From positions 1,530-65,529 of the forward strand of contig JANYAV010000010.1 of the NCBI GenBank assembly GCA_025361145.1: a stretch of 64,000 nt of DNA. The letters run 5' to 3'. This DNA is from Dehalococcoidia bacterium. Lineage in GTDB: Bacteria > Chloroflexota > Dehalococcoidia > Dehalococcoidales > UBA3254. The translations under genes were made by a program, and so were the position numbers. Each line of letters begins with the position of its first letter. Positions within the stretch are counted from its first letter, which is position 1. Shown in pieces: positions 40,227 through 58,810 of the stretch. Under the pieces are notes generated by a model. The model had not been told where the DNA came from, ran no database searches, and saw only the letters and a program-made list of their open reading frames with translations.

Positions 40227-41687
40227 TTACCCCTTTATCACTCCTATCGGGACACATCTTGCTATCTTCCTGGAAATCCCCGCCTTCTCGGTGATTTCCA
40301 CTACTTCCGCCACATCCTTGTAGGCTTCTGAGGCTTCTTCAGCCAGCGACACTAGACTATCGCATTTCACCAGTATGCCTCGCTTACCTAGCTTATCAGC
40401 TACGTCGCCGCCACTTAGACCTTTTTTAGCTGCGGTGCGGCTTTGCATCCGGCCTGCCCCGTGGCAGGTCGATCCGAATGTATCTTGCATGGCTGTTTTT
40501 GTTCCTACCGCGATATATGAGTAGCGGCCCATGTCCCCCGGAATCAAGACCGGTTGGCCGATGTTGCGGTAAATGGCCGGTATCTCTGGATGGCCAATAG
40601 GAAACGCTCGCGTTGCTCCCTTGCGGTGTACACACAGGGTTTCGGTTTTACCTTCCACAGCATGCTCTTCCAACTTGGCGATGTTGTGCGCCACGTCGTA
40701 GATTTGCTCCAACCCTATCTCTCGCGGGCTTTTATTTAGCACTCTAATAAAGGACTCCCTGATCCAGTGGGCGATACACTGGCGGTTGGCCCAGGCATAG
40801 TTCGCGGCGCAAGCCATAGCTGCCAGATAGTCTTGTCCTTCCGGTGACTGCACCGGGGCGCAGGCCAACTGTTTGTCCGGCAGAGTTATACCATAACGAC
40901 GGGTAGCTTCAGCAAGAGTCCTGATGTAGTCATCGCAGACCTGATGGCCTAGTCCACGCGAGCCGGTGTGTATCAGAATCAAAATTTGACCGGTTTCGAG
41001 AATGCCCATCGTCCGGGCTGTTACACTGTCGTAAATCTGATCTACCGCCTGTATTTCCAGAAAATGATTGCCTGATCCCAGCGTTCCTATCTGCGGCAGG
41101 CCGCGTTTTTTGGCTTTTAGACTCACTTTATCCGGATCGGCCCCTTTCATGCAGCCTGACTCTTCGGTACAAATCAGGTCGTCTGCCTGTCCTAAGCCCT
41201 TTTCTACCGCCCAGGCCGCCCCTTTAATCAGGACTTTATCCAGTTCCTTCTCACCGATTCTCAATTTGCCCTCTGATCCCAGCCCAGAGGGTACATTGGA
41301 GTACATGGCATAAACCAGTTTTTCTATATTGGGTTTGACCTCTTCAAGGCTCACATTGGTGCGTAGAAGCCTGACTCCGCAGTTGATGTCGAATCCCACT
41401 CCTCCCGGCGATACTACCCCGTCTTTGACCCGCGTAGCTGCTACTCCGCCGATGGGAAAACCGTAACCGAAGTGGATATCCGGCATGGCCAGAGAATAGC
41501 CTACAATACCGGGTAAAAAGCTGACGTTGACCACCTGTTCGAAAGCCTGGTCTTCCCAGATTTGCGCCAGCATCTTTTCACTGGTGTATATCCTGCCCGG
41601 AACCCGCATGCCCGCTTTATAGCTGGGTCGGATCTCCCAGCGGTTTTCATCTATTTTGTGGATTACGTCTTTCCACCCTGCGGCCAT
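40227..41687 (-). CDS. rtcB: RNA-splicing ligase RtcB
   Basis: 486 aa. GSGNHF, HTGSRGLGHQV and CHGAGR motifs. Confidence 0.95.
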   Translation of the reverse strand: MAAGWKDVIHKIDENRWEIRPSYKAGMRVPGRIYTSEKMLAQIWEDQAFEQVVNVSFLPGIVGYSLAMPDIHFGYGFPIGGVAATRVKDGVVSPGGVGFDINCGVRLLRTNVSLEEVKPNIEKLVYAMYSNVPSGLGSEGKLRIGEKELDKVLIKGAAWAVEKGLGQADDLICTEESGCMKGADPDKVSLKAKKRGLPQIGTLGSGNHFLEIQAVDQIYDSVTARTMGILETGQILILIHTGSRGLGHQVCDDYIRTLAEATRRYGITLPDKQLACAPVQSPEGQDYLAAMACAANYAWANRQCIAHWIRESFIRVLNKSPREIGLEQIYDVAHNIAKLEEHAVEGKTETLCVHRKGATRAFPIGHPEIPAIYRNIGQPVLIPGDMGRYSYIAVGTKTAMQDTFGSTCHGAGRMQSRTAAKKGLSGGDVADKLGKRGILVKCDSLVSLAEEASEAYKDVAEVVEITEKAGISRKIARCVPIGVIKG

Positions 41688-41781
41688 TTTAATTTCCTTT
41701 GCTTGTTTTTATTTGTGATCTGTATCTAGTGATTTAAGATTTATTTGGTTATTGGATTTTATATCTATTTCTTCTTTCTTG

Positions 41782-41799
41782 TTTTACCTTTGATTTCTT
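41782..41799. repeat. Heptad element copy C4 (TTTTA-CCTTTGA-TTTCTTC)
   Basis: Ends at the archease stop codon. Confidence 0.5.
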
Positions 41800-42219
41800 C
41801 TAAATATCCAAGATCACTTCTGCTGTAAAACTTCCGTCCTTCAGTTTCTCTACTTTCAGTTTATGATAGGTGGCGGATTTTATCCCTCTTTTTATTTGGT
41901 GTCGTGACAGATCTGCCTTCTCTCCGAAACAGTGGGCTTTAAGCTGTGATTTACTGATTTTAACGATCTCGAACCTGCTGAAGAGCAGCATCTCGGCGTC
42001 GAAAACATAAATTAGTTCATTTAACCATTCAGCCAGCAAGGCTTCCCTGTCCGGTGCGCTAATTGAAATTTCTTTAGTTAGCCTTTCCTCGATGTTATCG
42101 ATATCGGTGATTAGACTCAGCATTCCCAGCGCGGCGTTGGTATAAACTTCCGACCAATCCTCGCCGAAAGCACGGATGCCGATATCGGCGGTAGTATCGA
42201 TTATTTCAAAATTATTCAT
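41800..42219 (-). CDS. Archease
   Basis: 139 aa. N-terminal TADIGIRAFG and a position upstream of rtcB. Extended -10 TGcTATAAT at 42233-42241 and no SD, so the leader is short or absent. Confidence 0.85.
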   Translation of the reverse strand: MNNFEIIDTTADIGIRAFGEDWSEVYTNAALGMLSLITDIDNIEERLTKEISISAPDREALLAEWLNELIYVFDAEMLLFSRFEIVKISKSQLKAHCFGEKADLSRHQIKRGIKSATYHKLKVEKLKDGSFTAEVILDI

Positions 42220-46709: not shown

Positions 46710-47819
46710 TTAAATAATCTCCTGGTAGTACCAGTGATAGGCTTCTGGCGAGGCGCTTTGTTGACTGCCCAGCACCTTTAATCTTCTCAGTTTCAGGATG
46801 ATGTAGACCTCTTTGCCGATTGTCAGGCTCATCTCGTGGGCCAGTTCCGTCGGCATCTCAGCCCTGATCATGTTATTGCCCACTTTGACATCTATCTTGG
46901 CCGAAGTTGTGCTCGTATCAAGGGCGGCGATTTTTCCTTTATAGCGGTTCACCGAGGGTCCGGGCGGTAAAACATCTGATACGTAAACGTCCCGCGGTGA
47001 AATAGCGATCTTCTGCATTGCGCCTTCATCGTGCGGCAGTATAATCAGCATACCGCCGCAATCTACTTCCATCAGTCCCGGCACCAATTGGCGGCAGGCT
47101 GTACATTCCAGAATATTCAATGAACCCACGAAGTCTGAGACGGCTGGAGTGGCCGGGGAGAAAAAGATTTCCTGCGGTTGCCCCACCTGTTCGATACTTC
47201 CACGCACCATCACCGCCATACGATCGGCCAGCTCTTCGGCCTCTACGTGATTATGCGTGATATGTATGGTGGTCACCCCCATTTCCTGATGGATTCTGCG
47301 CAGCTCTAGCCGCAGGTATTTGGAGGTCTGAACGTCCAGACTGCTCAGGGGTTCATCCAGCAGCAGGATTTGAGGTGACGGCGCTAGCGCTCTGGCCAGA
47401 GCGGCTCTCTGTTTTTCACCACCGCTTAAAGTGCGCGGGTCCCTCTCTAACAGATGGCTGATGCCTAATAATACTGCCAGGTCGTTAAGGCATTTCTGTT
47501 CCACTGAATAGGGCAGCTTTTTTTGTTTCAAACCGAAGAGAATGTTATCTCTGACATTTAAAAAAGGGAATAAAACATAGTCCTGTGGAACATAACTCAG
47601 GCCTCTTTCCTCGGGTGCCTGCCTGGTGATGTCCTTCCCGTTCAGCTGTATCCGTCCCGATTTGATTCTATGCAGCCCCGCCAGACACTCCATGAAGACC
47701 GTTTTACCCGCGCCCGAAGGTCCCAGGATAACGAAATATTCCTTGTCTTGAATATCTACGCTCAAATCCCTCAGGGTAAAGTCACCAATTTTAAATGAAA
47801 GGTCTTTTATTTCGATCAT
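46710..47819 (-). CDS. modC: Molybdate/tungstate ABC transporter ATP-binding protein with a C-terminal TOBE/Mop-like domain
   Basis: 369 aa. GPSGAGKT, LSGGEKQR and LLLDEP motifs. Confidence 0.85.
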   Translation of the reverse strand: MIEIKDLSFKIGDFTLRDLSVDIQDKEYFVILGPSGAGKTVFMECLAGLHRIKSGRIQLNGKDITRQAPEERGLSYVPQDYVLFPFLNVRDNILFGLKQKKLPYSVEQKCLNDLAVLLGISHLLERDPRTLSGGEKQRAALARALAPSPQILLLDEPLSSLDVQTSKYLRLELRRIHQEMGVTTIHITHNHVEAEELADRMAVMVRGSIEQVGQPQEIFFSPATPAVSDFVGSLNILECTACRQLVPGLMEVDCGGMLIILPHDEGAMQKIAISPRDVYVSDVLPPGPSVNRYKGKIAALDTSTTSAKIDVKVGNNMIRAEMPTELAHEMSLTIGKEVYIILKLRRLKVLGSQQSASPEAYHWYYQEII

Positions 47820-48622
47820 ATGACGTATTTCCGTCCGGTTACTTTACGGATAATCAGGAGGGCCGTTAGTGAGATGACAACCAGAATAACAATCAAAGCC
47901 ACGGCCTGGCCAATGTTAGCGGATGATAGGCTGAGAGAGATAGCGATGGGCAGTGTCTCGGTTTTGAAGGCCGTAGCTCCGGCCAGTGTGACTGTAGCGC
48001 CGAATTCGCCGGTAGCGCGCGCCCAGGTCAGGATGGCAGCGGCTATCAGGCCGTTCTTGGCCAGCGGCAGGACCACCCGGAAAAAGGCGGCCGGTTGGCT
48101 GCATCCCAGTGTACGGCTAACCTGTTCGTAACGTGGATCAATACTATCAAAGGTGGATTTCAAAAGACGAATCGCCAGCGCGCTGACGATAGTGAACTGG
48201 GCCAGAACAATCCCCGGTACTGAAAATACGAAACGTAATAGATGGTTGTTAATACCTTCTCCCATCGGAGTATTAAAGAAAACCAGCAGCGCCGCACCGA
48301 TGGCTACCGGCGAGATCACAATAGGCAAGTCCAGCAGGCTGTCTACCAGGCTCTTGCCCCAGAACTCATTGGTAGAAATCGCGTATGCCACTGGAATAGC
48401 GATAGCGATTGCCAGTATGGTGGTGATAGTAGCGGTAATCAGACTCAATTTAATGGCAAACAGGGTTTCCGGCGCGACCAACGCGTTAACCATTGTTCCC
48501 CAGTCTGTAAAGGTCAACAGAGAAACGATGATCACTACAAAAAATAGAGTTAGCAGAGCCAGGGCGCTGATGGTGGCTGCCCTGAAAGCCCTGTCACCGC
48601 CCGCGCCCTTTAGCTTTTTCAT
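47816..48622 (-). CDS. modB: Molybdate/tungstate ABC transporter permease
   Basis: 268 aa with 5-6 TM. Overlaps modC by 4 nt. Confidence 0.85.
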   Translation of the reverse strand: MKKLKGAGGDRAFRAATISALALLTLFFVVIIVSLLTFTDWGTMVNALVAPETLFAIKLSLITATITTILAIAIAIPVAYAISTNEFWGKSLVDSLLDLPIVISPVAIGAALLVFFNTPMGEGINNHLLRFVFSVPGIVLAQFTIVSALAIRLLKSTFDSIDPRYEQVSRTLGCSQPAAFFRVVLPLAKNGLIAAAILTWARATGEFGATVTLAGATAFKTETLPIAISLSLSSANIGQAVALIVILVVISLTALLIIRKVTGRKYVI

Positions 48623-48644
48623 TCTTTCACCCGTGTAAACTCAC

Positions 48645-49523
48645 TCATTTAATTAGTGCTTTATAATCCTCAGGTAATTGATATTCTCCCCCGATTTTGG
48701 CTTGAGGTGCAAATGTACGGGCTTCGGCTTCCGTTGCATTATATCCCCATTTCTTAAAGATGTCCTGTCCTGCAGGTGAGACCAGAAAATCAATGAATTG
48801 AGCTGCCAGGACTTTATCTTTGGTAAAGGTAGAGATTGCTGCCGGGATGTACGCTAGCCGGGGCAGTTGTTCTGGTTTTATCATGATGCGTTCGATGTGC
48901 TGAGGGTCCCAATCCTGAAAAACGCTCCAACCTATCACCGCATCCACTGACTTCAACGAGATCAGGGTGGCTGTGGCATCACAGGAGGTAGCCTGAGTCA
49001 CAATATTCGGGAAAACCGATTCTATCAGCTTGTTACTATCTAGGATTTCAACCGCGTATAGTCCTACGCAAACGCTATCCGGGTTGCCGATGCCCACTTT
49101 CAATCCGGTTTTGGCCAAATCAGATAGGGATAGGATATTTTGGGGGTTGCCTGGTTGGACGCAAATAGCCGGCACCAAATAGGCTAATATTTTTGTGGTG
49201 GTTGGATCAATAACTTGTTTTTTCTCAGCTTTGGCTAAGTAATCCGGGGAGCCGGGAATATAGATATCTCCGGTTTTGGCCAGTTCCATTTGAGATAAGA
49301 CTGTTCCTGAACCGCCGTAAGTCAGATAGACTTTGACTCCGGTCTTTTTTTCAAAGGCCGCTGCTGCCTCATTCAGGGGTGGTTTGCTCGCCGAGCCAGC
49401 AAAGACGGATAGTTCTTTGGTTGCTATGGTATTGGTTTCAGTTCTATTGGTTGTCTGGCAACCTGCCAGGAAAGTCATTACCAATGTTGCTATTAAAATT
49501 AAAACTAATATACTTTTACGCAT
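48645..49523 (-). CDS. modA: Molybdate/tungstate-binding lipoprotein (ModA/WtpA-like)
   Basis: 292 aa. Lipobox LAGC and a periplasmic binding fold. Mo versus W specificity cannot be told from sequence by eye. Confidence 0.8.
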   Translation of the reverse strand: MRKSILVLILIATLVMTFLAGCQTTNRTETNTIATKELSVFAGSASKPPLNEAAAAFEKKTGVKVYLTYGGSGTVLSQMELAKTGDIYIPGSPDYLAKAEKKQVIDPTTTKILAYLVPAICVQPGNPQNILSLSDLAKTGLKVGIGNPDSVCVGLYAVEILDSNKLIESVFPNIVTQATSCDATATLISLKSVDAVIGWSVFQDWDPQHIERIMIKPEQLPRLAYIPAAISTFTKDKVLAAQFIDFLVSPAGQDIFKKWGYNATEAEARTFAPQAKIGGEYQLPEDYKALIK

Positions 49524-49599
49524 TTTTATTTATGATTCTTCCTTTAATTATTTTAATGGTCCACCGATTTATTTAGGCAGAATCATACTCATGTATCCA

Positions 49600-49740
49600 T
49601 TCCTCTTCTCCTTTCCAAGGTTGGGAAACAGTGCCGTTTCCAGCGCTGCCGTCGATCCCTCCGATGACTCGGGGGGATACCGGCTGTTCACCCTGTCCCC
49701 AGAAAATCGGGAGTTAGGTCAGACAGCTTTAGAGAGTCCT
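49600..49740 (-). promoter_or_regulatory. Structured leader copy 1 (candidate Moco/Tuco riboswitch) upstream of modA
   Basis: The minus strand ends ...CCCCCGAGUCAUCGGAGGG...GGAAAC-loop-GUUUCC...GGAAAGGAGAAG. Shares long conserved blocks with copy 2. Confidence 0.5.
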
Positions 49741-49787
49741 TTCACAACTAGTTGGATTTACTTTTATAATTGGGTGATCAAACGAGT

Positions 49788-49830: not shown

Positions 49831-49849
49831 GTTTTACATAAATAGACCA

Positions 49850-50020
49850 TTCTTCTCCTTTCCAAATGGGAAACAGCGCCGTTTCCAGCTCTGCCGTCGA
49901 TCCGATTTACCTTAAAGGGTTTGGGCGAAGCCCATAAGAATAGCGGGAGACCCTTCATGGTGCCGGATACCGGCTGCCGACCTTGTTCATTTCGAAGTTA
50001 GGCCCAGCAGCTCAAGAGAT
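49850..50020 (-). promoter_or_regulatory. Structured leader copy 2 (candidate Moco/Tuco riboswitch, with an extra inserted hairpin)
   Basis: Same conserved blocks as copy 1 (CAGCCGGUAUCC; AUCGACGGCAGnGCUGGAAACGGCnCUGUUUCCCA; GGAAAGGAGAAGA). The short CCGAG hairpin of copy 1 is replaced by a longer hairpin, which adds about 45 nt. Confidence 0.5.
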
Positions 50021-50032
50021 TTATCTTCTTTT

Positions 50033-51570: not shown

Positions 51571-52071
51571 TCATTGATTTTTAGCAAATTTATTAAGCGC
51601 ATTGTGGGTGGCAAACACAGATACTCTATCTAAAGTCCCCCAGCGCAGAGCCTGGGTTGGACAGGTAGCCGCGCACATTGGCGTCTGCCCGTTCTCTACT
51701 CTATCCAGACACATGTCGCACTTCTGCATTAAGCCATCTTCACCGAATTGCGGTGCTCCGAATGGGCAGGCCTCCAGGCAGGCTCGGCAGCCTGTGCATT
51801 TGTCCCTTTCGACTATCACAATCCCATCCGGTCGCTTGATAATAGCTCCGGTAGGACAAGCCGTTATACAGGGAGCTTGAGCGCAGTGCTCGCAGGAAAT
51901 CGAAATAAAGCGTCTTTTAACCTCAGGAAAAACTCCGCTGGTGACTTCCTCCACCCTTCGCAGCTTTATTGTGCCGGCTTTGATGCCTTTCCACTGTTTG
52001 CAAGCCACTTCACAAGCCTTGCACTTGATGCACCGGTCTGAATCGAAATAAAAGCCATATTGCCTCTTCAA
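51571..52071 (-). CDS. 4Fe-4S dicluster (DmsB-type) electron-transfer subunit
   Basis: 166 aa with four Cys groups (CIKCKACEVAC, CEHCAQAPCITACP, CTGCRACLEACP, CDMC...CAATCP). Confidence 0.88.
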   Translation of the reverse strand: MKRQYGFYFDSDRCIKCKACEVACKQWKGIKAGTIKLRRVEEVTSGVFPEVKRRFISISCEHCAQAPCITACPTGAIIKRPDGIVIVERDKCTGCRACLEACPFGAPQFGEDGLMQKCDMCLDRVENGQTPMCAATCPTQALRWGTLDRVSVFATHNALNKFAKNQ

Positions 52072-54341
52072 GGCTGCGCCTCTTCAATCTTGCTTATCTT
52101 GACCAGCGTCTGTTTGGCCATTTGCGAATGAAATTTGTCAAATAGCTTTTCATTAGCATTGTATAAATTATTGACCTCGCTTCCTCCGTCGAACTCATTA
52201 TAACCTGGTAAACCCAGCTCATCGCAGCCTTGCCACCAGCCTCTTTTGGTCATCAAGACCTCAGGTGAAATACCTGCAAAATACTCTGCCTTAAATTTAC
52301 TCCACCCGTGCGGAGACTCCACTCTGACCCAGTCGCCATCTGCGATTCCGTATTTTTTTGCCGCGGCCGGATTAATCTTCAACCATGGATATGGCTGCTG
52401 TTCACGCAAATATGGCACATCCTGCATAAAGCTGTGGTGGCTATAACGGTGCGCATGCACATCGCTGAGCACCAGCGGATACTCTTTAAGCAGTTCAGGT
52501 GTTTCTGCTATGCCCTCCGGGGGGCCCTGGTATACAGGGAGGTAATTCAGCTTACTAACACCGTCGCAGCTGTCTTTACCTCCGAGAAATTCGTTATAGC
52601 ACTGAACTTTGCCGTGAGGCAGATCTTTAAATAACTGGGTATATCTCTGATATTGCGGCGCTGGCGCAGGCTGAGTCCTCTTGATAAATATCCCTTTCGG
52701 GCTATTCCGCAGTTCTTCCAGGCTAATACCCGAAGGCGCTAACTGCTCCCGTAAACAGGCATCCATGTTCCCATTCCAGAAGTCCTCTCCATAACCCATT
52801 TTGACCGCCAGGTCTAGATATATTTGCCAGTCCGAGCGGGATTCTCCCAGCGGCTCAATAATTTTATTATAGATACCCAGCCACGTGCCTTCTTTAACGT
52901 TTTTTATGCAGATCTGATCGCTGTGTTCATAGCTAGTACAGGCAGGTAACACTATATCGGCATAATCTACGTGAGAAGCGTGGTAAATGTCCGCCACGAA
53001 CATAAAATCCAGCTTTTTAAGGGCTTCGGCTACTCTTCTTGGATTTCGGGTGGCGGAAAGAGGGTTTGAGCAAGATGCGTTGAGCACCCGCAGCGGATAG
53101 GGTTTGCCGCTTAAAATGCTCATTAGAGCCTTGTAATAAGCCGAGGTTGGGCCATGTGGCATAAAGCCCATTTTTTGATACCACTTCGGTGTCTCAGGAG
53201 CCACCAGTTTATCCACCAGATCAGTTGGCGCTTTTTCATTTAATTTAGCTATTTGATTAGTCTTAATCAGTGGAGCGCCCACCTGGGGAAGTCCACCCAG
53301 CAACCCCCCCGGCACGTCCAGGTTGCCTGTAATAGCGGAGATCAGGCAAATAGCTGAAACCACCGCCGTACCATCATTGGTTTGGTCGCCCACTCCGTTG
53401 CCAATCTTAATGAAGCTCGGTTTGATAGTGCCCATCATGCGGGCTGCCAGTCGAATCTTATCCGCAGGTATGCCTGTCTTGTTCTCCGCCCATTCGGGAG
53501 TATTTCGTTGTACATAAGCTGCTAGCTTATCGAAACCGTAGCACCACTTCTCTACGAAGTCGGCATCGTATAAATTTTCATTGATAATTATATTCAGAAT
53601 AGCCAGCGCTAGAGCGCCGTCTGTGCCCGGTCTGACCGGCAACCAGACATCGGCTTTCGCACCCAAAGGGTCCAGCATGGGCCGTATATCGATCATCTTG
53701 CTGCCAGTTTCTAGGGCATTTAATATGTCATTCGGCTGTCCCAAATTGATTCCGGAGTTCTCGCAGTTGCCCCCCCAGTTTACGATCAATTTGGTCTTGC
53801 TCCAATCGTCCGGCGCTATGCTTCGAAATCCGATAGTCGCCTTGCAGGCTGCCATCCTGGGAGTCGCGCAAAGTGCGCTATGCAAATAATTCGGGCTGCC
53901 ATATACATTCAGAAATCGTCTTCCGAATGTATCTAAAACCGGCCAGATCTCCGGAGATAAAACTCCAAACGACTCAGCTCCGTATTTTCTCTTGTTTTCC
54001 TTTAATTTATACGCGATAGTCTCCAGGGCTTCGTCCCAGCTAATGCGGGTAAATCGTCCCTCTCCTTTGTCGCCTGCTCGTTTCATCGGATATTGCAAGC
54101 GCTTTGGAGCATATAAAAATTGAGGGCCTGTGTTGCCTTTCGCACATAATGAAGTACAACCAGCCCCCCAATTATTAAAAGCTTCAGGATTGCCCTCTAC
54201 CCGCACGAATTTCCCCGCAACTACATGACATAATATGCCGCACTTGGGCTTAGCGGCCCCGCACCCGTGACAGAAAGTGGGGATTATTTTATTGTTCGGA
54301 TTCAAATCTGCTATCGTTGTTCCCTCATCTTTCTGGGTCAT
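52068..54341 (-). CDS. Molybdopterin (bis-MGD) oxidoreductase catalytic subunit, cytoplasmic type
   Basis: 757 aa. N-terminal FeS motif CHGCGAAKPKCGILC, no twin-arginine signal, MopB-family blocks. Overlaps the FeS subunit gene by 4 nt. Confidence 0.85.
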   Translation of the reverse strand: MTQKDEGTTIADLNPNNKIIPTFCHGCGAAKPKCGILCHVVAGKFVRVEGNPEAFNNWGAGCTSLCAKGNTGPQFLYAPKRLQYPMKRAGDKGEGRFTRISWDEALETIAYKLKENKRKYGAESFGVLSPEIWPVLDTFGRRFLNVYGSPNYLHSALCATPRMAACKATIGFRSIAPDDWSKTKLIVNWGGNCENSGINLGQPNDILNALETGSKMIDIRPMLDPLGAKADVWLPVRPGTDGALALAILNIIINENLYDADFVEKWCYGFDKLAAYVQRNTPEWAENKTGIPADKIRLAARMMGTIKPSFIKIGNGVGDQTNDGTAVVSAICLISAITGNLDVPGGLLGGLPQVGAPLIKTNQIAKLNEKAPTDLVDKLVAPETPKWYQKMGFMPHGPTSAYYKALMSILSGKPYPLRVLNASCSNPLSATRNPRRVAEALKKLDFMFVADIYHASHVDYADIVLPACTSYEHSDQICIKNVKEGTWLGIYNKIIEPLGESRSDWQIYLDLAVKMGYGEDFWNGNMDACLREQLAPSGISLEELRNSPKGIFIKRTQPAPAPQYQRYTQLFKDLPHGKVQCYNEFLGGKDSCDGVSKLNYLPVYQGPPEGIAETPELLKEYPLVLSDVHAHRYSHHSFMQDVPYLREQQPYPWLKINPAAAKKYGIADGDWVRVESPHGWSKFKAEYFAGISPEVLMTKRGWWQGCDELGLPGYNEFDGGSEVNNLYNANEKLFDKFHSQMAKQTLVKISKIEEAQP

Positions 54342-54707: not shown

Positions 54708-55427
54708 ATGCCTAGGCCTATCAAATGCCGCAGAGTATGTTGCAGCCCTGAAATCTTTTATTTTAAACCGGCTGGCATACCTTTACATGTCCTGGATCAG
54801 GTTGAACTCACTGTTGAGGAGTTGGAAGCCTTGCGCTTAAAAGACCTGGAAGGACTACATCAGGCTCAGGGGGCGGTGCAGATGAATGTTTCAAGGCCTA
54901 CTTTTCAACGCATCCTCACTTCAGCTCGCCGCAAAACCGCTGAAGCACTCTCGCAGGGTAAAGCTATCCGCATCAACGGGGGCTCCTACGTGTTATCCGA
55001 AAATATATTAAGTGAAAGGGAGAAATTATTGAAAATTGCAGTAGTCTCAGACAACGAAACAACCATTAGTCAGCACTTTGGCCGAGCACCCTATTACATC
55101 ATAATGACGCTGGAAAACGGCAAAGTGGTAAAACAAGAAAAATTTGAAAGAGGTGCTTCGGGTACCTGTGCTTGCGGTCACGGCGGACACGAAGAGCATC
55201 CTGCCTCACACGGCGCGGATTCTGAATCTGCTGCTAAACATAACCGAATGGTTGATCCCATCGCCGATTGCCAGGTTTTAATTGCTGGCGGTATGGGATA
55301 TGGCGCATACCAGGCTTTGAAAAGTCGCAATCTTCAGGTCTTTATTACCGCAGAATCATCTATTCAGAAAGCAGTTGAACTTTTTTCCGCAGGCAAGCTC
55401 GATAACCTTATGGAACGTCTGCACTAG
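54708..55427 (+). CDS. DUF134 (predicted DNA-binding) fused to a NifX/NifB-like FeMo-cofactor-binding domain
   Basis: N-terminus [10 protein letters not shown]...[27 protein letters not shown]-terminus KIAVVSD...[11 protein letters not shown]...[16 protein letters not shown]. Confidence 0.75.
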
Positions 55428-55467
55428 GTCAGTTTTCTCAAAATATACAATAATTCAGGAGAGTTGC

Positions 55468-56475
55468 GTGATACAAACCGATAAAATCAAATCAATTGTT
55501 GAAAATATTCCTGTGCCCGGGATATTTCGCAGAATAGGGCAGATGAATCTACTCAAGAGTATTGAAGTTACTGATCAATCAGTTGAGATAGTCTTAAGTT
55601 CCACTGGATTGGAGGAAGAATCCCAGTTGTGGATACAAAACTCTATTCAGGATGATATTGCCAGTTTGGCTGGCGGACTTAAAGTAAAAATAAGTTTTGT
55701 CGAGACCGCTCCCAGGGAACTAAACGTTTTCGGCAAGATCATTGCTGTCATGAGCGGTAAAGGCGGTGTAGGCAAATCGCTGGTCAGCGGTTTAACTGCT
55801 ATTGCCCTCAGGCGTGCCGGTTTTAGTGTGGGTATTCTGGATGCGGACATTACCGGCCCCAGTATCCCCAAAATGTTTGGCGTTAAGGATCGCCCTTCTT
55901 TTAATGCCAATGCCATGCTTCCGGTCGTGACCCATACCGGCATTGAGATTATGTCTCTTAACCTGCTTTTACCCACTGAGGAAGAAGCGGTCATCTGGCG
56001 TGGGCCTATGATTGGCAAAGTTATCACCCAATTCTGGGAGGAAGTCCTCTGGGGTAAGCTGGATTATCTTATTATTGATTTACCGCCGGGAACCGCGGAT
56101 GCTCCCTTAACCATTCTTCAACAGGTGCCTGTCTCGGGGATCATTATAGTCTCTACACCCCAGGACCTTACTACCATGATCGTGAAAAAAGCCGTCCATA
56201 TGGCGGCAACCATGCAGAAACCCATTCTGGGTGTGGTGGAAAACATGAGCTACCTTTATGTGCCGGAGATTGATAAAAAGATCGAGTTGTTCGGTAAAAG
56301 CCGGGTGGATGAAATGGCCCGGGCTGCCGGTGCCCCGGTTATCGCTGTCTTGCCCATAGATCCTGCTCTGGCGGCTCTCTGCGACAAGGGTGAAATTGAA
56401 AAATATGATAATGAGATAATTTCCCAGATCGGACACAAAATTTACGAATTGGCTGGGGTCTTAAAACAAACTTAA
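55468..56475 (+). CDS. Mrp/NBP35/ApbC-family P-loop ATPase lacking the CxxC cluster motif
   Basis: GTG at 55468 after AGGAGAG. Deviant Walker A MSGKGGVGKS. The position of the usual CPxC reads VPEI (ENMSYLYVPEIDKKIELFG). Confidence 0.8.
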   Translation: MIQTDKIKSIVENIPVPGIFRRIGQMNLLKSIEVTDQSVEIVLSSTGLEEESQLWIQNSIQDDIASLAGGLKVKISFVETAPRELNVFGKIIAVMSGKGGVGKSLVSGLTAIALRRAGFSVGILDADITGPSIPKMFGVKDRPSFNANAMLPVVTHTGIEIMSLNLLLPTEEEAVIWRGPMIGKVITQFWEEVLWGKLDYLIIDLPPGTADAPLTILQQVPVSGIIIVSTPQDLTTMIVKKAVHMAATMQKPILGVVENMSYLYVPEIDKKIELFGKSRVDEMARAAGAPVIAVLPIDPALAALCDKGEIEKYDNEIISQIGHKIYELAGVLKQT

Positions 56476-57200: not shown

Positions 57201-57398
57201 TTACTTAATCTGTTTTTTGGTCGAGAAATGGAAAGGGGCATATAACGGACAAAAGCCGATTGCGGCGGTTAATATTAAGATAGCTCCTATCACCCACAGG
57301 ACGATCTGCGCTACCCCGCTCACTGCTAGAAAAGCAATTAATACCACAGTTATTCCTAAGATAGCCCTGATGATTCGATCCATTTTCCCCATATTCAT
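57201..57398 (-). CDS. DUF2892 (YgaP-like) membrane protein
   Basis: Two TM with ...GFCPLY.. at the C-terminus. ATG 57398 is preferred because GGAGGAGA lies 7 nt upstream. Confidence 0.75.
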   Translation of the reverse strand: MNMGKMDRIIRAILGITVVLIAFLAVSGVAQIVLWVIGAILILTAAIGFCPLYAPFHFSTKKQIK

Positions 57399-57641
57399 TA
57401 TCATTCTCCTCCATAATTCACCTTCTTTTTCTCGGTAAAGGTCTCATCTTGCGCTCCTTGTTACCTATGTAAGGTGAGACCTTATAAAACCCCCGTCTCC
57501 TATACCCGATTAGTTACTTTTACCCTCCATATGTCCCGTATGAACGGAAGTGAATCGGGATTGCCTTTTGCTTTTATTCACGTTTGTAATTTTTATTTGT
57601 GATTGCTAATTTGTTTGTCTCTTGTCTCTTTTAGCTTTAAG

Positions 57642-57911
57642 CTAGTTTCTGATCGTCAACCCACTCCGGCCTGGTATATTTACATAATCAATGGTGCTGT
57701 TTTCAGTGTAGGGTTTAAGGTCATCAATCATTAACAGGTCGATACCATTTACTTCAATTGTTGTTTCGTTCTCTTTTGGCTCTTCCAGAGCCAACCCAAT
57801 GTTGGGACCGTTTCAGCCCATTCCCTTATACATTACACGTAGATACTTGCCGGGATTGACACTCAGGATTTCTTTTATCTTATTTCTAGCGTCATCAGTT
57901 ATTTTGATCAT
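57642..57911 (-). CDS. HesB/IscA-like protein with an in-frame TGA (candidate selenocysteine) - or a nonsense pseudogene
   Basis: ATG 57911 (GAGGGG RBS), TGA at 57815-57813, TAG at 57644-57642. The frame stays open on both sides. The TGA replaces the conserved Cys of ..GGGCxG.. (here KGMG-U-NGP). Confidence 0.6.
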
Positions 57912-57959
57912 TATTCCCCTCATATAGTTTTATTATTTACTGTCGATTTCATTTAAGCT

Positions 57960-58301
57960 TTATTTTGGGTTAGCTTTTTTCAGGATTGCATCTACCTTCG
58001 ATCGAATCGCTTGCTCGGGATTGGCACCTATAATTTCATCCACCTGCTTGCCTTCAACAAAAAATTTCTGTGTCGGTATGCTCATGACTTTATACTTTTC
58101 TGAGGTTAGCGGGTTCTCATCAACATTCAATTTACAAAATTTAAATTTACCGCTGTATTCCTCAGATAATTTGTCATAAATTGGTAGCACCATGCGGCAA
58201 GGACTGCACCAGGGTGCCCAGAAGTCAATCTCGGTAGGGATCTTTGACTTTAAAACTTCTTCTTCAAAATTCTGGTCGGTGACATCGATTACTTTACTCA
58301 T
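57960..58301 (-). CDS. trxA: Thioredoxin
   Basis: 113 aa. Active site WCSPC. Overlaps the fur-family gene by 8 nt. Confidence 0.9.
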   Translation of the reverse strand: MSKVIDVTDQNFEEEVLKSKIPTEIDFWAPWCSPCRMVLPIYDKLSEEYSGKFKFCKLNVDENPLTSEKYKVMSIPTQKFFVEGKQVDEIIGANPEQAIRSKVDAILKKANPK

Positions 58302-58755
58302 TTTTCAGCTCCTTTTCAGCGACTGATTTATTACTATCCTGGCATTCCTTACATGTTCCTTGCAGACAGAGTTCAACTTTTTCGATCGTGAACCCCTGTT
58401 TATCCTGTATTGCTTTAATTAGTTCTGTAATCAGCGGGCTCTCAAAATCAGATACTTTTCCACAACCTTTACACAGCATATGCTGGTGCTCCAGGGATTG
58501 CTTTAACTCGTAACAACAGCCTTGTTTACCCAGTCTGTGCTCATCGATGAGCCCCACTTTTTTAAAGAGCGTCAGGCTTCGGTAAATAGTCGCTAAACTA
58601 ACAGACTCATCTTTTTTGCTTGTCAGTTGATAAAGCTTTTTTACATCAATTGGTCCGCAGGATTTGCGGATTAACTCCAGGATTAGTTGCCGTTGTGGAG
58701 TTAAAACATATTTTTCCAACTGGTTGCTATGTTTGCGATTGCGAATCATTCTCAT
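58294..58755 (-). CDS. Fur-family metalloregulator (Fur/PerR/Zur-like)
   Basis: 153 aa. Winged helix plus CKGCG...CKEC. No SD. -10 TACACT ends 7 nt before the ATG, so the mRNA is probably leaderless. Confidence 0.85.
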   Translation of the reverse strand: MRMIRNRKHSNQLEKYVLTPQRQLILELIRKSCGPIDVKKLYQLTSKKDESVSLATIYRSLTLFKKVGLIDEHRLGKQGCCYELKQSLEHQHMLCKGCGKVSDFESPLITELIKAIQDKQGFTIEKVELCLQGTCKECQDSNKSVAEKELKNE

Positions 58756-58784
58756 AAATTAAAGTGTACTACCTGGCACGCATA

Positions 58785-58810
58785 TTGTCAAATGATGGGA
58801 TATTTGACAA
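58785..58810. promoter_or_regulatory. Perfect 9-8-9 inverted repeat TTGTCAAAT-N8-ATTTGACAA overlapping the fur -35
   Basis: Read directly. The left arm contains the minus-strand TTGACA (58786-58791), spaced 17 nt from TACACT (58763-58768). Confidence 0.55.

What the first reader, a model, noticed from the sequence alone, without database searches (positions are those of the whole stretch)
57642..57911. Unlisted HesB/IscA-like gene with an in-frame TGA at the conserved Cys position: selenocysteine candidate
The six-frame track shows nothing of 60 aa or more between trx and the DUF2892 gene. Yet the minus strand reads ATG (57911, with GAGGGG 4 nt upstream), 32 sense codons, TGA (57815-57813), 56 more in-frame sense codons, then TAG (57644-57642). 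The conceptual product is MIKITDDARNKIKEILSVNPGKYLRVMYKGMG[U]NGPNIGLALEEPKENETTIEVNGIDLLMIDDLKPYTENSTIDYVNIPGRSGLTIRN. This is HesB/IscA-like, and the TGA falls exactly where this family carries its first cluster-ligand Cys (..GGGCxG..). A hairpin CCAAC-AUUGG-GUUGG (plus-strand coordinates 57791-57805), with a possible lower stem, begins 8 nt after the UGA and could be a bacterial SECIS. HesB-like proteins are an already named bacterial selenoprotein family. The neighbours are a thioredoxin and a Fur/PerR-like regulator, which fits a redox role. The alternative is a nonsense-mutated pseudogene.
Basis: partly seen in the sequence, partly recalled or inferred. Interest (0 to 1): 0.7.

Follow-up and report, generated by a model that had tools for sequence, protein, structure and literature searches.

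The report
Unannotated HesB-like selenocysteine gene
A small, unannotated gene in a sediment Dehalococcoidia bacterium almost certainly encodes an IscA/HesB-fold protein whose only reactive residue is a selenocysteine read from an in-frame UGA; it is a divergent member of a selenoprotein family that is already known, so a good catch but not a new kind of thing.

Summary
On the minus strand, ATG 57911, TGA 57815-57813 and TAG 57644-57642 define an 89-codon frame. With Cys substituted for the TGA, its product passes Pfam's HesB/IscA threshold.

The selenocysteine reading is strongly supported.
- The same codon is TGA (never TAA or TAG) in 11 further orthologs, down to roughly 40-50% identity by eye (50-87% measured for six), and in five independent assemblies of the same species.
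- Related proteins have Cys at that column.
- dN/dS downstream of the TGA is 0.08-0.22.
- The motif is U-x-G-P, the signature of the known HesB-like selenoprotein family.

The real candidate lies next to it at 57794-57776. It has a 7-bp stem and a UGGAA loop that starts 25 nt after the UGA. It meets all four published bacterial SECIS criteria, shows compensatory changes at three pairs and has frozen synonymous sites. It is lost in distant Cys-type genes.

The organism is a Chloroflexota/Dehalococcoidia bacterium, a class reported to hold selenoprotein-rich genomes. Sec machinery could not be checked, because it is not in this window.

The product scores below NCBI's two curated HesB selenoprotein models and has no Cys at all. 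Its function is unknown; a Trx-linked redox role is inferred.

The parts
57642..57911 (-). HesB/IscA-like selenoprotein CDS. It has 89 codons, with Sec at codon 33, and ends in TAG. The product is MIKITDDARNKIKEILSVNPGKYLRVMYKGMG-U-NGPNIGLALEEPKENETTIEVNGIDLLMIDDLKPYTENSTIDYVNIPGRSGLTIRN. It contains no Cys.
   Evidence: Searches give the sequence. Pfam PF01521 scores 34.1 bits against a cutoff of 26.3. The best NCBIfam hit is NF038090 IscA_HesB_Se. Orthologs were found. dN/dS values are.
57813..57815 (-). In-frame TGA, read as UGA = selenocysteine at codon 33, within the motif G-U-N-G-P.
   Evidence: The codon is TGA in all 12 distinct orthologs examined and in 5 independent assemblies of this species. 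Homologs have TGT or TGC (Cys) at this position. It aligns with the conserved Cys of HI1723 and AQ_1857.
57776..57794 (-). Candidate bacterial SECIS hairpin UUGGCUC-UGGAA-GAGCCAA. The 5' arm is 57794-57788, the loop 57787-57783 and the 3' arm 57782-57776. The stem starts 18 nt after the UGA and the loop 25 nt after it.
   Evidence: The hairpin alone folds at -10 kcal/mol with z -3.25. Pairing is 89% across 12 orthologs, with double changes at 3 pairs, against 25-46% in slid controls. RNAalifold picks it. Synonymous sites are frozen in the stem codons. The hairpin is lost in distant Cys-type genes. It meets the four bSECIS criteria quoted.
57791..57805 (-). It is present in the sequence but not conserved, and it competes with the real hairpin for the UUGG at 57791-57794.
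   Evidence: Pairing is 71% in 9 sequences and 63% in 12 sequences, which 295 of 500 shuffles reach.
57806..57818 (-). A 5-bp mini-stem that encloses the UGA (GGCUG-A..-CGGUC). It is conserved but shows no double changes, so it is probably a by-product of the codons GGC-UGA-GGN-GGN-CCN.
57916..57921 (-). Shine-Dalgarno-like GAGGGG, 4 nt before the ATG.
   Evidence: Orthologs L001 and L002 have AGGGGTGGA in the same place.
57960..58301 (-). Thioredoxin gene. It lies immediately upstream, 48 nt before the hesB-like start, and is probably co-transcribed.
   Evidence: PF00085 with E 1.7e-29. TIGR01068 scores 108.2 bits against a cutoff of 96.8.
58294..58755 (-). Fur-family regulator; Fur and PerR cannot be told apart. 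It overlaps trx by 8 nt. In ortholog L001 a Fur gene directly precedes the hesB-like gene.
   Evidence: PF01475. Fur and PerR models score 74 and 72 bits, both below their cutoffs.
58763..58791 (-). Sigma-70-like promoter match (TTGACA-17-TACACT) just upstream of fur. It is a possible start of a fur-trx-hesB transcript.
   Evidence: This is a consensus match only; the number of such matches in the region is not above shuffles.

Best explanation
Positions 57911-57642 (minus strand) hold a genuine, expressed selenoprotein gene of the HesB/IscA (A-type carrier) fold.

Mechanism of decoding. The UGA at codon 33 is decoded as selenocysteine. SelB bound to Sec-tRNA(Sec) would be recruited by a coding-region hairpin, UUGGCUC-UGGAA-GAGCCAA, whose apical loop starts 25 nt downstream of the UGA. 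The Sec replaces the first of the three cluster-ligand cysteines of IscA-type proteins and sits in a tight beta-turn.

Likely function. This clade has lost the C-terminal Cys that most relatives keep and contains no Cys at all. It therefore cannot bind an Fe-S cluster in the classical three-Cys way. I infer that it acts through a single selenol. That selenol would be oxidised to a selenenic acid or a mixed selenenylsulfide and recycled by the thioredoxin encoded immediately upstream, under a Fur/PerR-type regulator. This would place it in redox or metal stress handling.

What is shown and what is inferred. Shown: the conserved UGA, the Cys homologs, selection downstream of the UGA, the covarying hairpin, the fold and the gene neighbourhood. 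Inferred: actual Sec insertion, co-transcription with trx, and the redox role.
For: (1) The same codon is TGA in W, L001, L002, L004, L005, L006, L007, L008, L009, L048, L049, L050, L051 and L052. It is never TAA or TAG. The same TGA-containing ORF, which translates identically, is present in a public MAG and four independent SRA assemblies.
(2) There are Sec/Cys pairs. P0003, P0004, P0006, P0020 and P0023 have TGT or TGC at the column. Of the 150 best cluster representatives, 48 are Sec-type and 70 are Cys-type.
(3) Nei-Gojobori dN/dS downstream of the TGA is 0.22, 0.19 and 0.08 in the three pairwise comparisons, with differences concentrated at third codon positions. The most conserved protein motif, NGIDLL, lies after the TGA.
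(4) The hairpin is 89% paired, with compensatory changes at three pairs (G-C/A-U, G-C/U-A, C-G/U-A). Its covariation score is reached by 2 of 500 shuffles, and slid controls pair at 25-46%. The stem codons are frozen: nCU 12/12, CUG 12/12, GAG 11/12. Invariant residues outside the stem use synonymous codons freely. Mean hairpin energy is about -7.6 kcal/mol in Sec genes, against -0.6 to -3.0 in Cys genes.
(5) All four published bSECIS criteria are met (criteria quoted, PMC13188914; energies).
(6) The UxGP motif is that of the known HesB-like selenoprotein family TIGR01911. The best NCBIfam hits are NF038090 IscA_HesB_Se and TIGR01911. The family has 75Se-labelling support in Methanococcus maripaludis (PMC11097638).
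(7) The host lineage is Dehalococcoidia, a class listed with genomes holding 46-49 selenoproteins (PMC13326102).
(8) The standard genetic code applies. TGA ends 5 of 46 family-supported genes, and no other gene in the window is split by a TGA.
(9) The fold is confirmed. An AlphaFold model of the 87%-identical ortholog has pLDDT 85 and matches IscA, SufA and HI1723 at TM 0.68-0.77.
Against: No selA, selB, selD or tRNA-Sec lies in the 64 kb window, and the rest of the genome could not be read. No RNA-seq run holds the locus, so expression is unproven. The product scores below the curated cutoffs of both HesB selenoprotein models: 56.6 against 85 for NF038090 and 34.2 against 66.35 for TIGR01911. 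No second selenoprotein gene was found in the window or in 33 related loci. None of the 33 reference Dehalococcoidia loci carries the gene at the syntenic place. The hairpin lies inside a conserved peptide motif (LALEEP), and the covariation rests on few independent events. The redox/Trx role rests only on gene order, and the trx gene is absent between fur and hesB in ortholog L001.
Confidence: 0.88

Rival explanations
1. It is a nonsense-mutated pseudogene of a Cys-type HesB/IscA gene.
For: Gene callers in all public assemblies stop at the TGA and emit a 32-aa stub. No Sec machinery is visible in the window.
Against: The TGA is at the identical codon in 12 distinct orthologs, down to roughly 40-50% identity by eye. 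dN/dS after the TGA is 0.08-0.22, and there are no frameshifts or further stops. A covarying hairpin follows the TGA.
Confidence: 0.02
2. The UGA is read through, but not as Sec. It could be decoded by near-cognate Trp or Cys tRNA, or the organism uses a code in which UGA is a sense codon.
For: Many database entries show Trp at the column. TGA is a rare stop codon here, ending 5 of 46 genes. Sec machinery is unverified.
Against: The 'W' entries are gene-caller artefacts: 6 of 6 checked have TGA in the DNA and do not translate to the stored protein under code 11. TGA terminates 5 family-supported genes, and none of about 60 other genes contains an in-frame TGA. Homologs carry Cys, not Trp or Gly, at the column. 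The hairpin fits the SelB-type SECIS consensus.
Confidence: 0.05
3. The gene does encode Sec, but the protein is still an Fe-S or iron carrier rather than a Trx-coupled redox protein. The selenolates of two subunits, or a partner protein, would supply the ligands.
For: The fold is that of IscA, SufA and ErpA, and Sec occupies the first ligand column. Nearby genes encode an Mrp/NBP35 Fe-S ATPase, a FeMo-cofactor-domain protein, ferredoxins and a Fur-family regulator. Of the Sec-type relatives, 41 of 48 keep a C-terminal Cys that could act as a second ligand.
Against: The window protein and its two closest orthologs have no Cys or His at all and lack the C-terminal tail. Classical A-type carriers need three Cys. 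DsrR shows that this fold can serve roles without cluster binding. The gene follows trx directly.
Confidence: 0.3
4. The locus encodes two separate small proteins: a 32-36-aa N-terminal peptide ending at the TGA, and a 50-aa protein restarting at TTG 57794.
For: Both pieces appear as ORFs. C-terminal fragments are stored as proteins in public databases (P0002, P0039, P0043).
Against: The two pieces together form one domain that matches the profile and the solved structures end to end. The TTG lies inside the hairpin stem with no ribosome-binding site. Cys-type homologs are single polypeptides.
Confidence: 0.01

Closest known systems
HesB-like selenoprotein family (TIGR01911 HesB_rel_seleno; motif UxGP). 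It was described by comparative genomics in Deltaproteobacteria, Clostridia, Actinobacteria and methanococci, and confirmed by 75Se labelling in Methanococcus maripaludis.
   Same: It is a small single-domain HesB/IscA-fold protein of about 90 aa. Sec lies at the column of the first conserved Cys, within the motif U-x-G-P. Cys-containing homologs coexist with Sec forms. Remnant SECIS-like hairpins occur in Cys forms derived from Sec forms.
   Different: It scores only 34.2 bits against a cutoff of 66.35. Its host is a Dehalococcoidia bacterium. It has no Cys anywhere. It sits in a fur-trx context.
NCBIfam NF038090 IscA_HesB_Se (IscA/HesB family protein subfamily)
   Same: This is the best-scoring curated model for the window protein and for every relative tested, with the alignment starting at position 1.
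   Different: The score is 56.6 bits against a cutoff of 85. Only positions 1-89 of 101 are matched, so the C-terminal Cys-rich tail of the model is absent. That tail is present in L006 and L007 as ...SGCEGCSSC.
A-type Fe-S carriers IscA, SufA and ErpA (PDB 1R94, 1S98, 2D2A, 1X0G, 2APN)
   Same: The fold is the same, with TM 0.66-0.77. The same turn carries the first ligand residue.
   Different: The carriers use three Cys (C-X(n)-C-G-C). Here the first is Sec and the other two are missing.
DsrR of Allochromatium vinosum (PDB 2K4Z)
   Same: It has the IscA fold (TM 0.75). From my own knowledge, not tested here, DsrR lacks the carrier cysteines, which would make it a precedent for non-carrier roles of this fold.
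   Different: DsrR has no Sec, and it sits in a sulfur-oxidation operon.
Bacterial SECIS consensus of Zhang and Gladyshev (bSECISearch model)
   Same: The loop is 5 nt, the stem 7 bp, G occupies loop positions 2-3, the UGA-to-loop distance is 25 nt, and the energy is -10 kcal/mol. All are within the published ranges.
   Different: No curated Rfam SECIS model matches. The element is specific to this protein family and lies entirely within the codons L-A-L-E-E-P-K.

Membership tests
HesB/IscA superfamily (Pfam PF01521 Fe-S_biosyn) | Profile match above Pfam's gathering score | tested here: met
   The score is 34.1 bits against a cutoff of 26.3, over residues 2-88, with U replaced by C.
HesB/IscA superfamily (Pfam PF01521 Fe-S_biosyn) | IscA-type fold | tested here: met
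   The AlphaFold model of the 87%-identical ortholog P0001 has pLDDT 85. The top PDB matches are IscA, SufA, HI1723 and AQ_1857, with E 1e-5 to 2e-4 and TM 0.66-0.77. The window protein itself could not be submitted.
A-type Fe-S carrier (IscA/SufA/ErpA) | Three conserved cluster-ligand cysteines: one mid-protein, plus a C-terminal C-G-C | tested here: not met
   The product has 0 Cys. The first position is Sec, and the C-terminal motif is absent because the protein ends ...SGLTIRN.
HesB-like selenoprotein (TIGR01911) | Score at or above NCBI's curated cutoff | tested here: not met
   The score is 34.2 bits against a cutoff of 66.35.
HesB-like selenoprotein (TIGR01911) | Sec motif UxGP at the conserved HesB Cys column | tested here: met
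   The motif here is G-U-N-G-P. The family motif is quoted. The column aligns with the Cys of HI1723 and AQ_1857.
NF038090 IscA_HesB_Se | Score at or above the curated cutoff | tested here: not met
   The score is 56.6 bits against a cutoff of 85. It is the best hit, and all 13 relatives tested also fall below the cutoff, at 34.8-68.7 bits.
Bacterial selenoprotein gene (general criteria) | In-frame UGA conserved among orthologs, with coding conservation on both sides | tested here: met
   12 of 12 distinct orthologs have TGA. dN/dS is 0.0-0.11 upstream and 0.08-0.22 downstream.
Bacterial selenoprotein gene (general criteria) | Cys-containing homologs aligned at the UGA | tested here: met
   P0003, P0004, P0006, P0020 and P0023 have TGT or TGC in the DNA. 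70 of the 150 representatives are Cys-type.
Bacterial selenoprotein gene (general criteria) | SECIS: apical loop of 3-9 nt and upper stem of 4-16 bp | tested here: met
   The loop is UGGAA (5 nt) and the stem is 7 bp.
Bacterial selenoprotein gene (general criteria) | SECIS: G in the first two loop positions (G[G|U]) | tested here: met
   The loop is U-G-G-A-N in 12 of 12 Sec-type genes.
Bacterial selenoprotein gene (general criteria) | SECIS: 16-37 nt between the UGA and the apical loop | tested here: met
   The distance is 25 nt in all 12.
Bacterial selenoprotein gene (general criteria) | SECIS: folding energy of -7.5 kcal/mol or lower | tested here: met
   The energy is -10.0 kcal/mol for the 19-nt hairpin and -15.0 for UGA+41. 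Two of the 12 orthologs are weaker, at -1.9 and -2.8.
Bacterial selenoprotein gene (general criteria) | selA, selB, selC (tRNA-Sec) and selD present in the genome | not testable with these tools
   None lies in the 64 kb window. The rest of the genome (e.g. MAG GCA_043723745.1) cannot be read here. The class Dehalococcoidia is reported to hold genomes with 46-49 selenoproteins.
Bacterial selenoprotein gene (general criteria) | Selenium actually incorporated at the UGA | not testable with these tools
   This needs 75Se labelling or mass spectrometry.

The most novel reading that the evidence does not exclude
The window clade (W, L001, L002) may be a functionally distinct offshoot of the HesB-like selenoproteins. 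It would be a Cys-free, C-terminally shortened protein with a single selenol that has left Fe-S carrier chemistry altogether. In this reading it works with the adjacent thioredoxin, under a Fur/PerR-type regulator, as a Trx-dependent selenol peroxidase or reductase, or as a selenium or metal chaperone. It would then be the first functional handle on a selenoprotein family whose role has stayed unknown for twenty years.
Probability: 0.25. Interest if true: 0.55.

Novelty: new member of a known kind. Interest (0 to 1): 0.35.

Why it matters
First, the gene is missing from public annotation of this organism. Every assembly stores only a 32-aa stub, so one selenoprotein of a poorly known sediment Dehalococcoidia lineage is recovered.

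Second, a large metagenomic group of UxGP HesB-like proteins falls below both curated NCBI models. At least 48 cluster representatives in public protein collections carry a spurious Trp at the Sec position, because gene callers switched to a code in which UGA is a sense codon. This is useful for curators and for selenoproteome surveys.

Third, the family-specific SECIS is now defined, with covariation and a Sec-versus-Cys contrast, and could be turned into a search model.

Fourth, a Cys-free single-Sec variant sitting next to trx and fur is a clean starting point for finding out what HesB-like selenoproteins do.

Tried and rejected
- The genome-contig scan with the HesB alignment found no relative in 185k reference genomes.
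- A second scan with the adjacent ATPase named the lineage, but none of the 33 loci has a HesB-like gene nearby.
- I looked for tRNA-Sec in the window and in 24 related loci and found none.
- I looked for sel genes among about 60 window ORFs and found none.
- I looked for a second selenoprotein in the window with two TGA-aware scans; only the HesB gene is credible.
- I looked for Sec/Cys pairs between window proteins and related loci and found none. The in-frame stops seen there lie at HSP edges, gaps or non-homologous stretches, not at Cys columns.
- No RNA run holds the locus.
- Rfam gave no SECIS match at either the gathering or the permissive threshold.
- The mini-stem around the UGA is not accepted as functional, because it shows no double changes.
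- The 20-aa fragment upstream of L002 could not be shown to be thioredoxin.
- Fur versus PerR could not be resolved.

Full report
**1. The observation**

- The ATG is at 57911, with GAGGGG 4 nt upstream.
- 32 sense codons follow, then TGA at 57815-57813, then 56 more sense codons, then TAG at 57644-57642.
- The mechanical ORF list shows only a 36-aa and a 50-aa piece here, and nothing of 60 aa or more between the thioredoxin gene (57960-58301) and the YgaP-like/DUF2892 gene (57201-57404).
- With Cys put in place of the stop, the 89-aa product passes Pfam's gathering score for PF01521 (Fe-S_biosyn, the HesB/IscA domain). The match spans residues 2-88, on both sides of the TGA (34.1 bits against 26.3).
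- Two TGA-aware scans of the whole window found no other credible split gene.

**2. Is the TGA real and conserved?**

A word-indexed protein search returned four relatives, and their DNA was fetched.
- P0001 is 87% identical. It is stored with 'W' at the column, but its DNA has TGA.
- P0002 is a 50-aa C-terminal fragment. Its contig holds the whole frame with TGA at the same codon.
- P0003 and P0004 are 55-57% identical and have TGT (Cys).

A metagenome scan added six loci at 50-66% identity, all with TGA at the same column.

An exact look-up of the neighbouring thioredoxin found the same locus in an NCBI MAG (GCA_043723745.1) and in four independent SRA assemblies. Each has the same TGA-containing ORF, translating identically, and each is annotated only with a 32-aa stub. 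A sequencing error is therefore excluded, and the gene is unannotated in public data.

An exhaustive profile search of 1.84 billion cluster representatives gave 433 relatives. Among the best 150:
- 48 full-length proteins carry 'W' at the column;
- 70 carry Cys;
- seven are N-terminal stubs of 32-41 aa ending in Gly (six of them exactly 32 aa), and several are C-terminal fragments.

I checked six 'W' entries on DNA, and all six have TGA. The Trp is an artefact of gene callers choosing a code in which UGA is a sense codon.

**3. Is the downstream half translated?**

Nei-Gojobori dN/dS was computed between the window gene and its two close orthologs. Upstream of the TGA it is 0.11, 0.11 and 0.0. 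Downstream it is 0.22, 0.19 and 0.08. Differences are concentrated at third codon positions. The most conserved peptide motif of the family, NGIDLL, lies after the TGA. There are no frameshifts or further stops in any ortholog. A pseudogene is excluded.

**4. The genetic code**

Of 46 family-supported genes in the window, 23 end in TAA, 18 in TAG and 5 in TGA. None of the other roughly 60 ORFs needs a TGA read-through. UGA is therefore a normal stop in this organism and is recoded only here.

**5. The SECIS**

It is 71% paired in nine sequences, with the central pair broken in six of them. In twelve sequences it is 63% paired, a value reached by 295 of 500 shuffles.

The adjacent hairpin UUGGCUC-UGGAA-GAGCCAA (57794-57776) overlaps it by four bases and is the conserved one.
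- RNAalifold selects it.
- On twelve distinct Sec-type genes it is 89% paired, with the five inner pairs essentially always formed.
- Three pairs show changes on both sides: G-C/A-U, G-C/U-A and C-G/U-A.
- Its covariation score is reached by only 2 of 500 shuffles, and slid controls pair at 25-46%.
- Alone it folds at -10 kcal/mol with z -3.25.

Synonymous sites separate RNA-level from protein-level constraint. The stem codons are nCU in 12/12, CUG (six-fold Leu) in 12/12 and GAG in 11/12, and the single GAA is compensated on the other arm. Invariant Gly, Glu, Asn and Leu residues outside the stem use their synonymous codons freely, and the last loop position varies freely.

In Cys-type genes the hairpin is gone in the distant ones: L053 at -0.6 and L054 at -2.7 kcal/mol, each with 3 of 7 pairs. 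It is degenerate in the closest ones: L003 at -3.0 and L055 at -1.6, each with only four Watson-Crick pairs. This is the 'remnant SECIS' pattern described for a Sec-to-Cys conversion of a HesB-like protein in Desulfitobacterium (PMC1794560).

The hairpin meets all four published constraints of the bacterial SECIS consensus: loop 3-9 nt, stem 4-16 bp, G in the first two loop positions, 16-37 nt from the UGA to the loop, and energy of -7.5 kcal/mol or lower (PMC13188914). Here the loop is 5 nt (UGGAA), the stem is 7 bp, the distance is 25 nt and the energy is -10 kcal/mol. No curated Rfam model matches. That is expected, because bacterial SECIS elements are specific to each gene family.

A further 5-bp mini-stem enclosing the UGA (57818-57806) is conserved but shows no double changes. 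It is probably a by-product of the codons GGC-UGA-GGN-GGN-CCN.

**6. What family is it?**

The 2026 review lists the HesB-like protein as a known prokaryotic selenoprotein family (TIGR01911) with the Sec motif UxGP. The window product reads G-U-N-G-P, and 32 of 48 Sec-type relatives read U-G-G-P.

A profile of the family hits two solved structures, HI1723 and AQ_1857, with the Sec column on their conserved Cys. An AlphaFold model of the 87%-identical ortholog (pLDDT 85) matches IscA, SufA, HI1723, AQ_1857 and the IscA-fold protein DsrR (TM 0.66-0.77). Residue 33 lies in the turn between two long strands.

Against NCBIfam the best hits are NF038090 'IscA_HesB_Se' (56.6 bits, cutoff 85) and, third, TIGR01911 (34.2 bits, cutoff 66.35). 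Thirteen relatives tested, both Sec and Cys types, also fall below both cutoffs. The gene is therefore a member of the wider UxGP HesB-like group, but it lies outside what the curated models capture.

One real difference stands out. 41 of 48 Sec-type relatives end with a C-terminal Cys (...SC...CC...GC). The window protein and its two close orthologs end ...LTIR(N/S) at a conserved TAG and contain no Cys or His at all.

**7. Organism and Sec competence**

The adjacent P-type ATPase finds its closest relatives (70-81% identity) exclusively in Chloroflexota/Dehalococcoidia/Dehalococcoidales MAGs from fens, peat and sediments. The sequencing runs holding the locus are sediment metagenomes. Moco riboswitches confirm a bacterium.

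The BSepDB paper lists Dehalococcoidia MAGs with 46 and 49 selenoproteins (PMC13326102), so Sec decoding is known in the class. I could not test the machinery in this genome.
- The window has only tRNA-Pro and no sel genes.
- Related loci hold no tRNA-Sec.
- Neither the window nor the related loci hold a second selenoprotein.

This is the main gap.

**8. Context and likely function**

The fur-family gene (58294-58755) overlaps trx (57960-58301) by 8 nt. The hesB-like gene starts 48 nt after trx and has its own Shine-Dalgarno sequence. A sigma-70-like match lies just upstream of fur, and no terminator-like site separates the three genes. In ortholog L001 a Fur gene directly precedes the hesB-like gene. 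More distant orthologs have other neighbours, for example an ArsR-like regulator in L004.

Further downstream lie a YgaP-like membrane protein, a ferredoxin, a zinc-ribbon protein, an Mrp/NBP35 ATPase, a DUF134/FeMo-cofactor-domain protein and a molybdopterin oxidoreductase.

The function of HesB-like selenoproteins is unknown, even in Methanococcus maripaludis, where the protein is 75Se-labelled (PMC11097638).

The window protein keeps only the first ligand position, as Sec, and has no other thiol. I therefore think a classical Fe-S carrier role is unlikely. I favour a single-selenol redox function recycled by the co-encoded thioredoxin. This is inference from anatomy and gene order. A carrier role, with ligands supplied by a dimer or a partner protein, remains a serious rival (about 0.3).

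**9. Verdict**

The SECIS is relocated by some 11 nt. The kind of gene is already known (a HesB-like selenoprotein), so this is a new, divergent, unannotated member rather than a new system. Interest is modest, about 0.35. The side findings add practical value: a family-specific SECIS with covariation, curated models that miss a large clade, and widespread 'Trp' mistranslations in public protein sets.

Noticed in passing
Loci L001, L048, L049, L050, L051, L052; proteins P0001, P0005-P0152: At least 48 of the 150 best cluster representatives of this family are stored in public protein collections with Trp at the Sec column. In 6 of 6 checked, the DNA has TGA. Gene callers evidently switched to a UGA=Trp code on short contigs, which hides selenoproteins as 'normal' proteins.
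   Followed up: partly
window 49592-49746 and 49839-50030 (-): Two tandem Moco/tungsten-cofactor riboswitch aptamers score 40.2 and 49.2 bits, both above the gathering score. They lie upstream of a WtpC-like tungstate/molybdate ABC transporter (46710-49523, -). The tandem arrangement was not analysed.
   Followed up: no
L003:291-334, L055 (Cys-type homologs P0003, P0006): The closest Cys-type homologs keep a degenerate copy of the hairpin after the TGT codon, with 6-7 of 7 pairs but only 4 Watson-Crick, at -1.6 to -3.0 kcal/mol. This suggests recent Sec-to-Cys conversion. These Cys forms also lack the C-terminal Cys.
   Followed up: partly
window, 46 family-supported genes: TGA is a rare stop codon (5 of 46; TAA 23, TAG 18) for a genome region of 47% G+C.
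   Followed up: no
proteins P0007 (1259 aa), P0058 (2014 aa), P0126 (1881 aa): Very long proteins match the HesB-like profile in 16, 7 and 5 separate stretches. They may be multi-repeat HesB-domain proteins or compositional matches.
   Followed up: no
window 57405-57641 (-); L001:685-836; L002:348-600: The spacer after the hesB-like stop is A-rich with short direct repeats (caagagacaa..., caagatacaagatacaa in the orthologs) and a CCCG...CGGG inverted repeat. No terminator-like site was called there.
   Followed up: no
window 40227-42219 (-): An RtcB RNA ligase gene with an archease gene next to it. In bacteria this pair is more often linked to RNA repair modules.
   Followed up: no
window 54708-56475 (+): A DUF134 / dinitrogenase FeMo-cofactor-domain fusion protein is followed, with overlap, by an Mrp/NBP35-type Fe-S ATPase, next to a molybdopterin oxidoreductase (52068-54341, -) with Cys at its active-site position. 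Together with the ferredoxins nearby, this forms a metallocofactor-maturation neighbourhood.
   Followed up: no
L041:10132-12160: The ATPase ortholog in a long-read MAG (MFD03726.bin.2.26) is broken by several in-frame stops or frameshifts. These are probably assembly errors.
   Followed up: no
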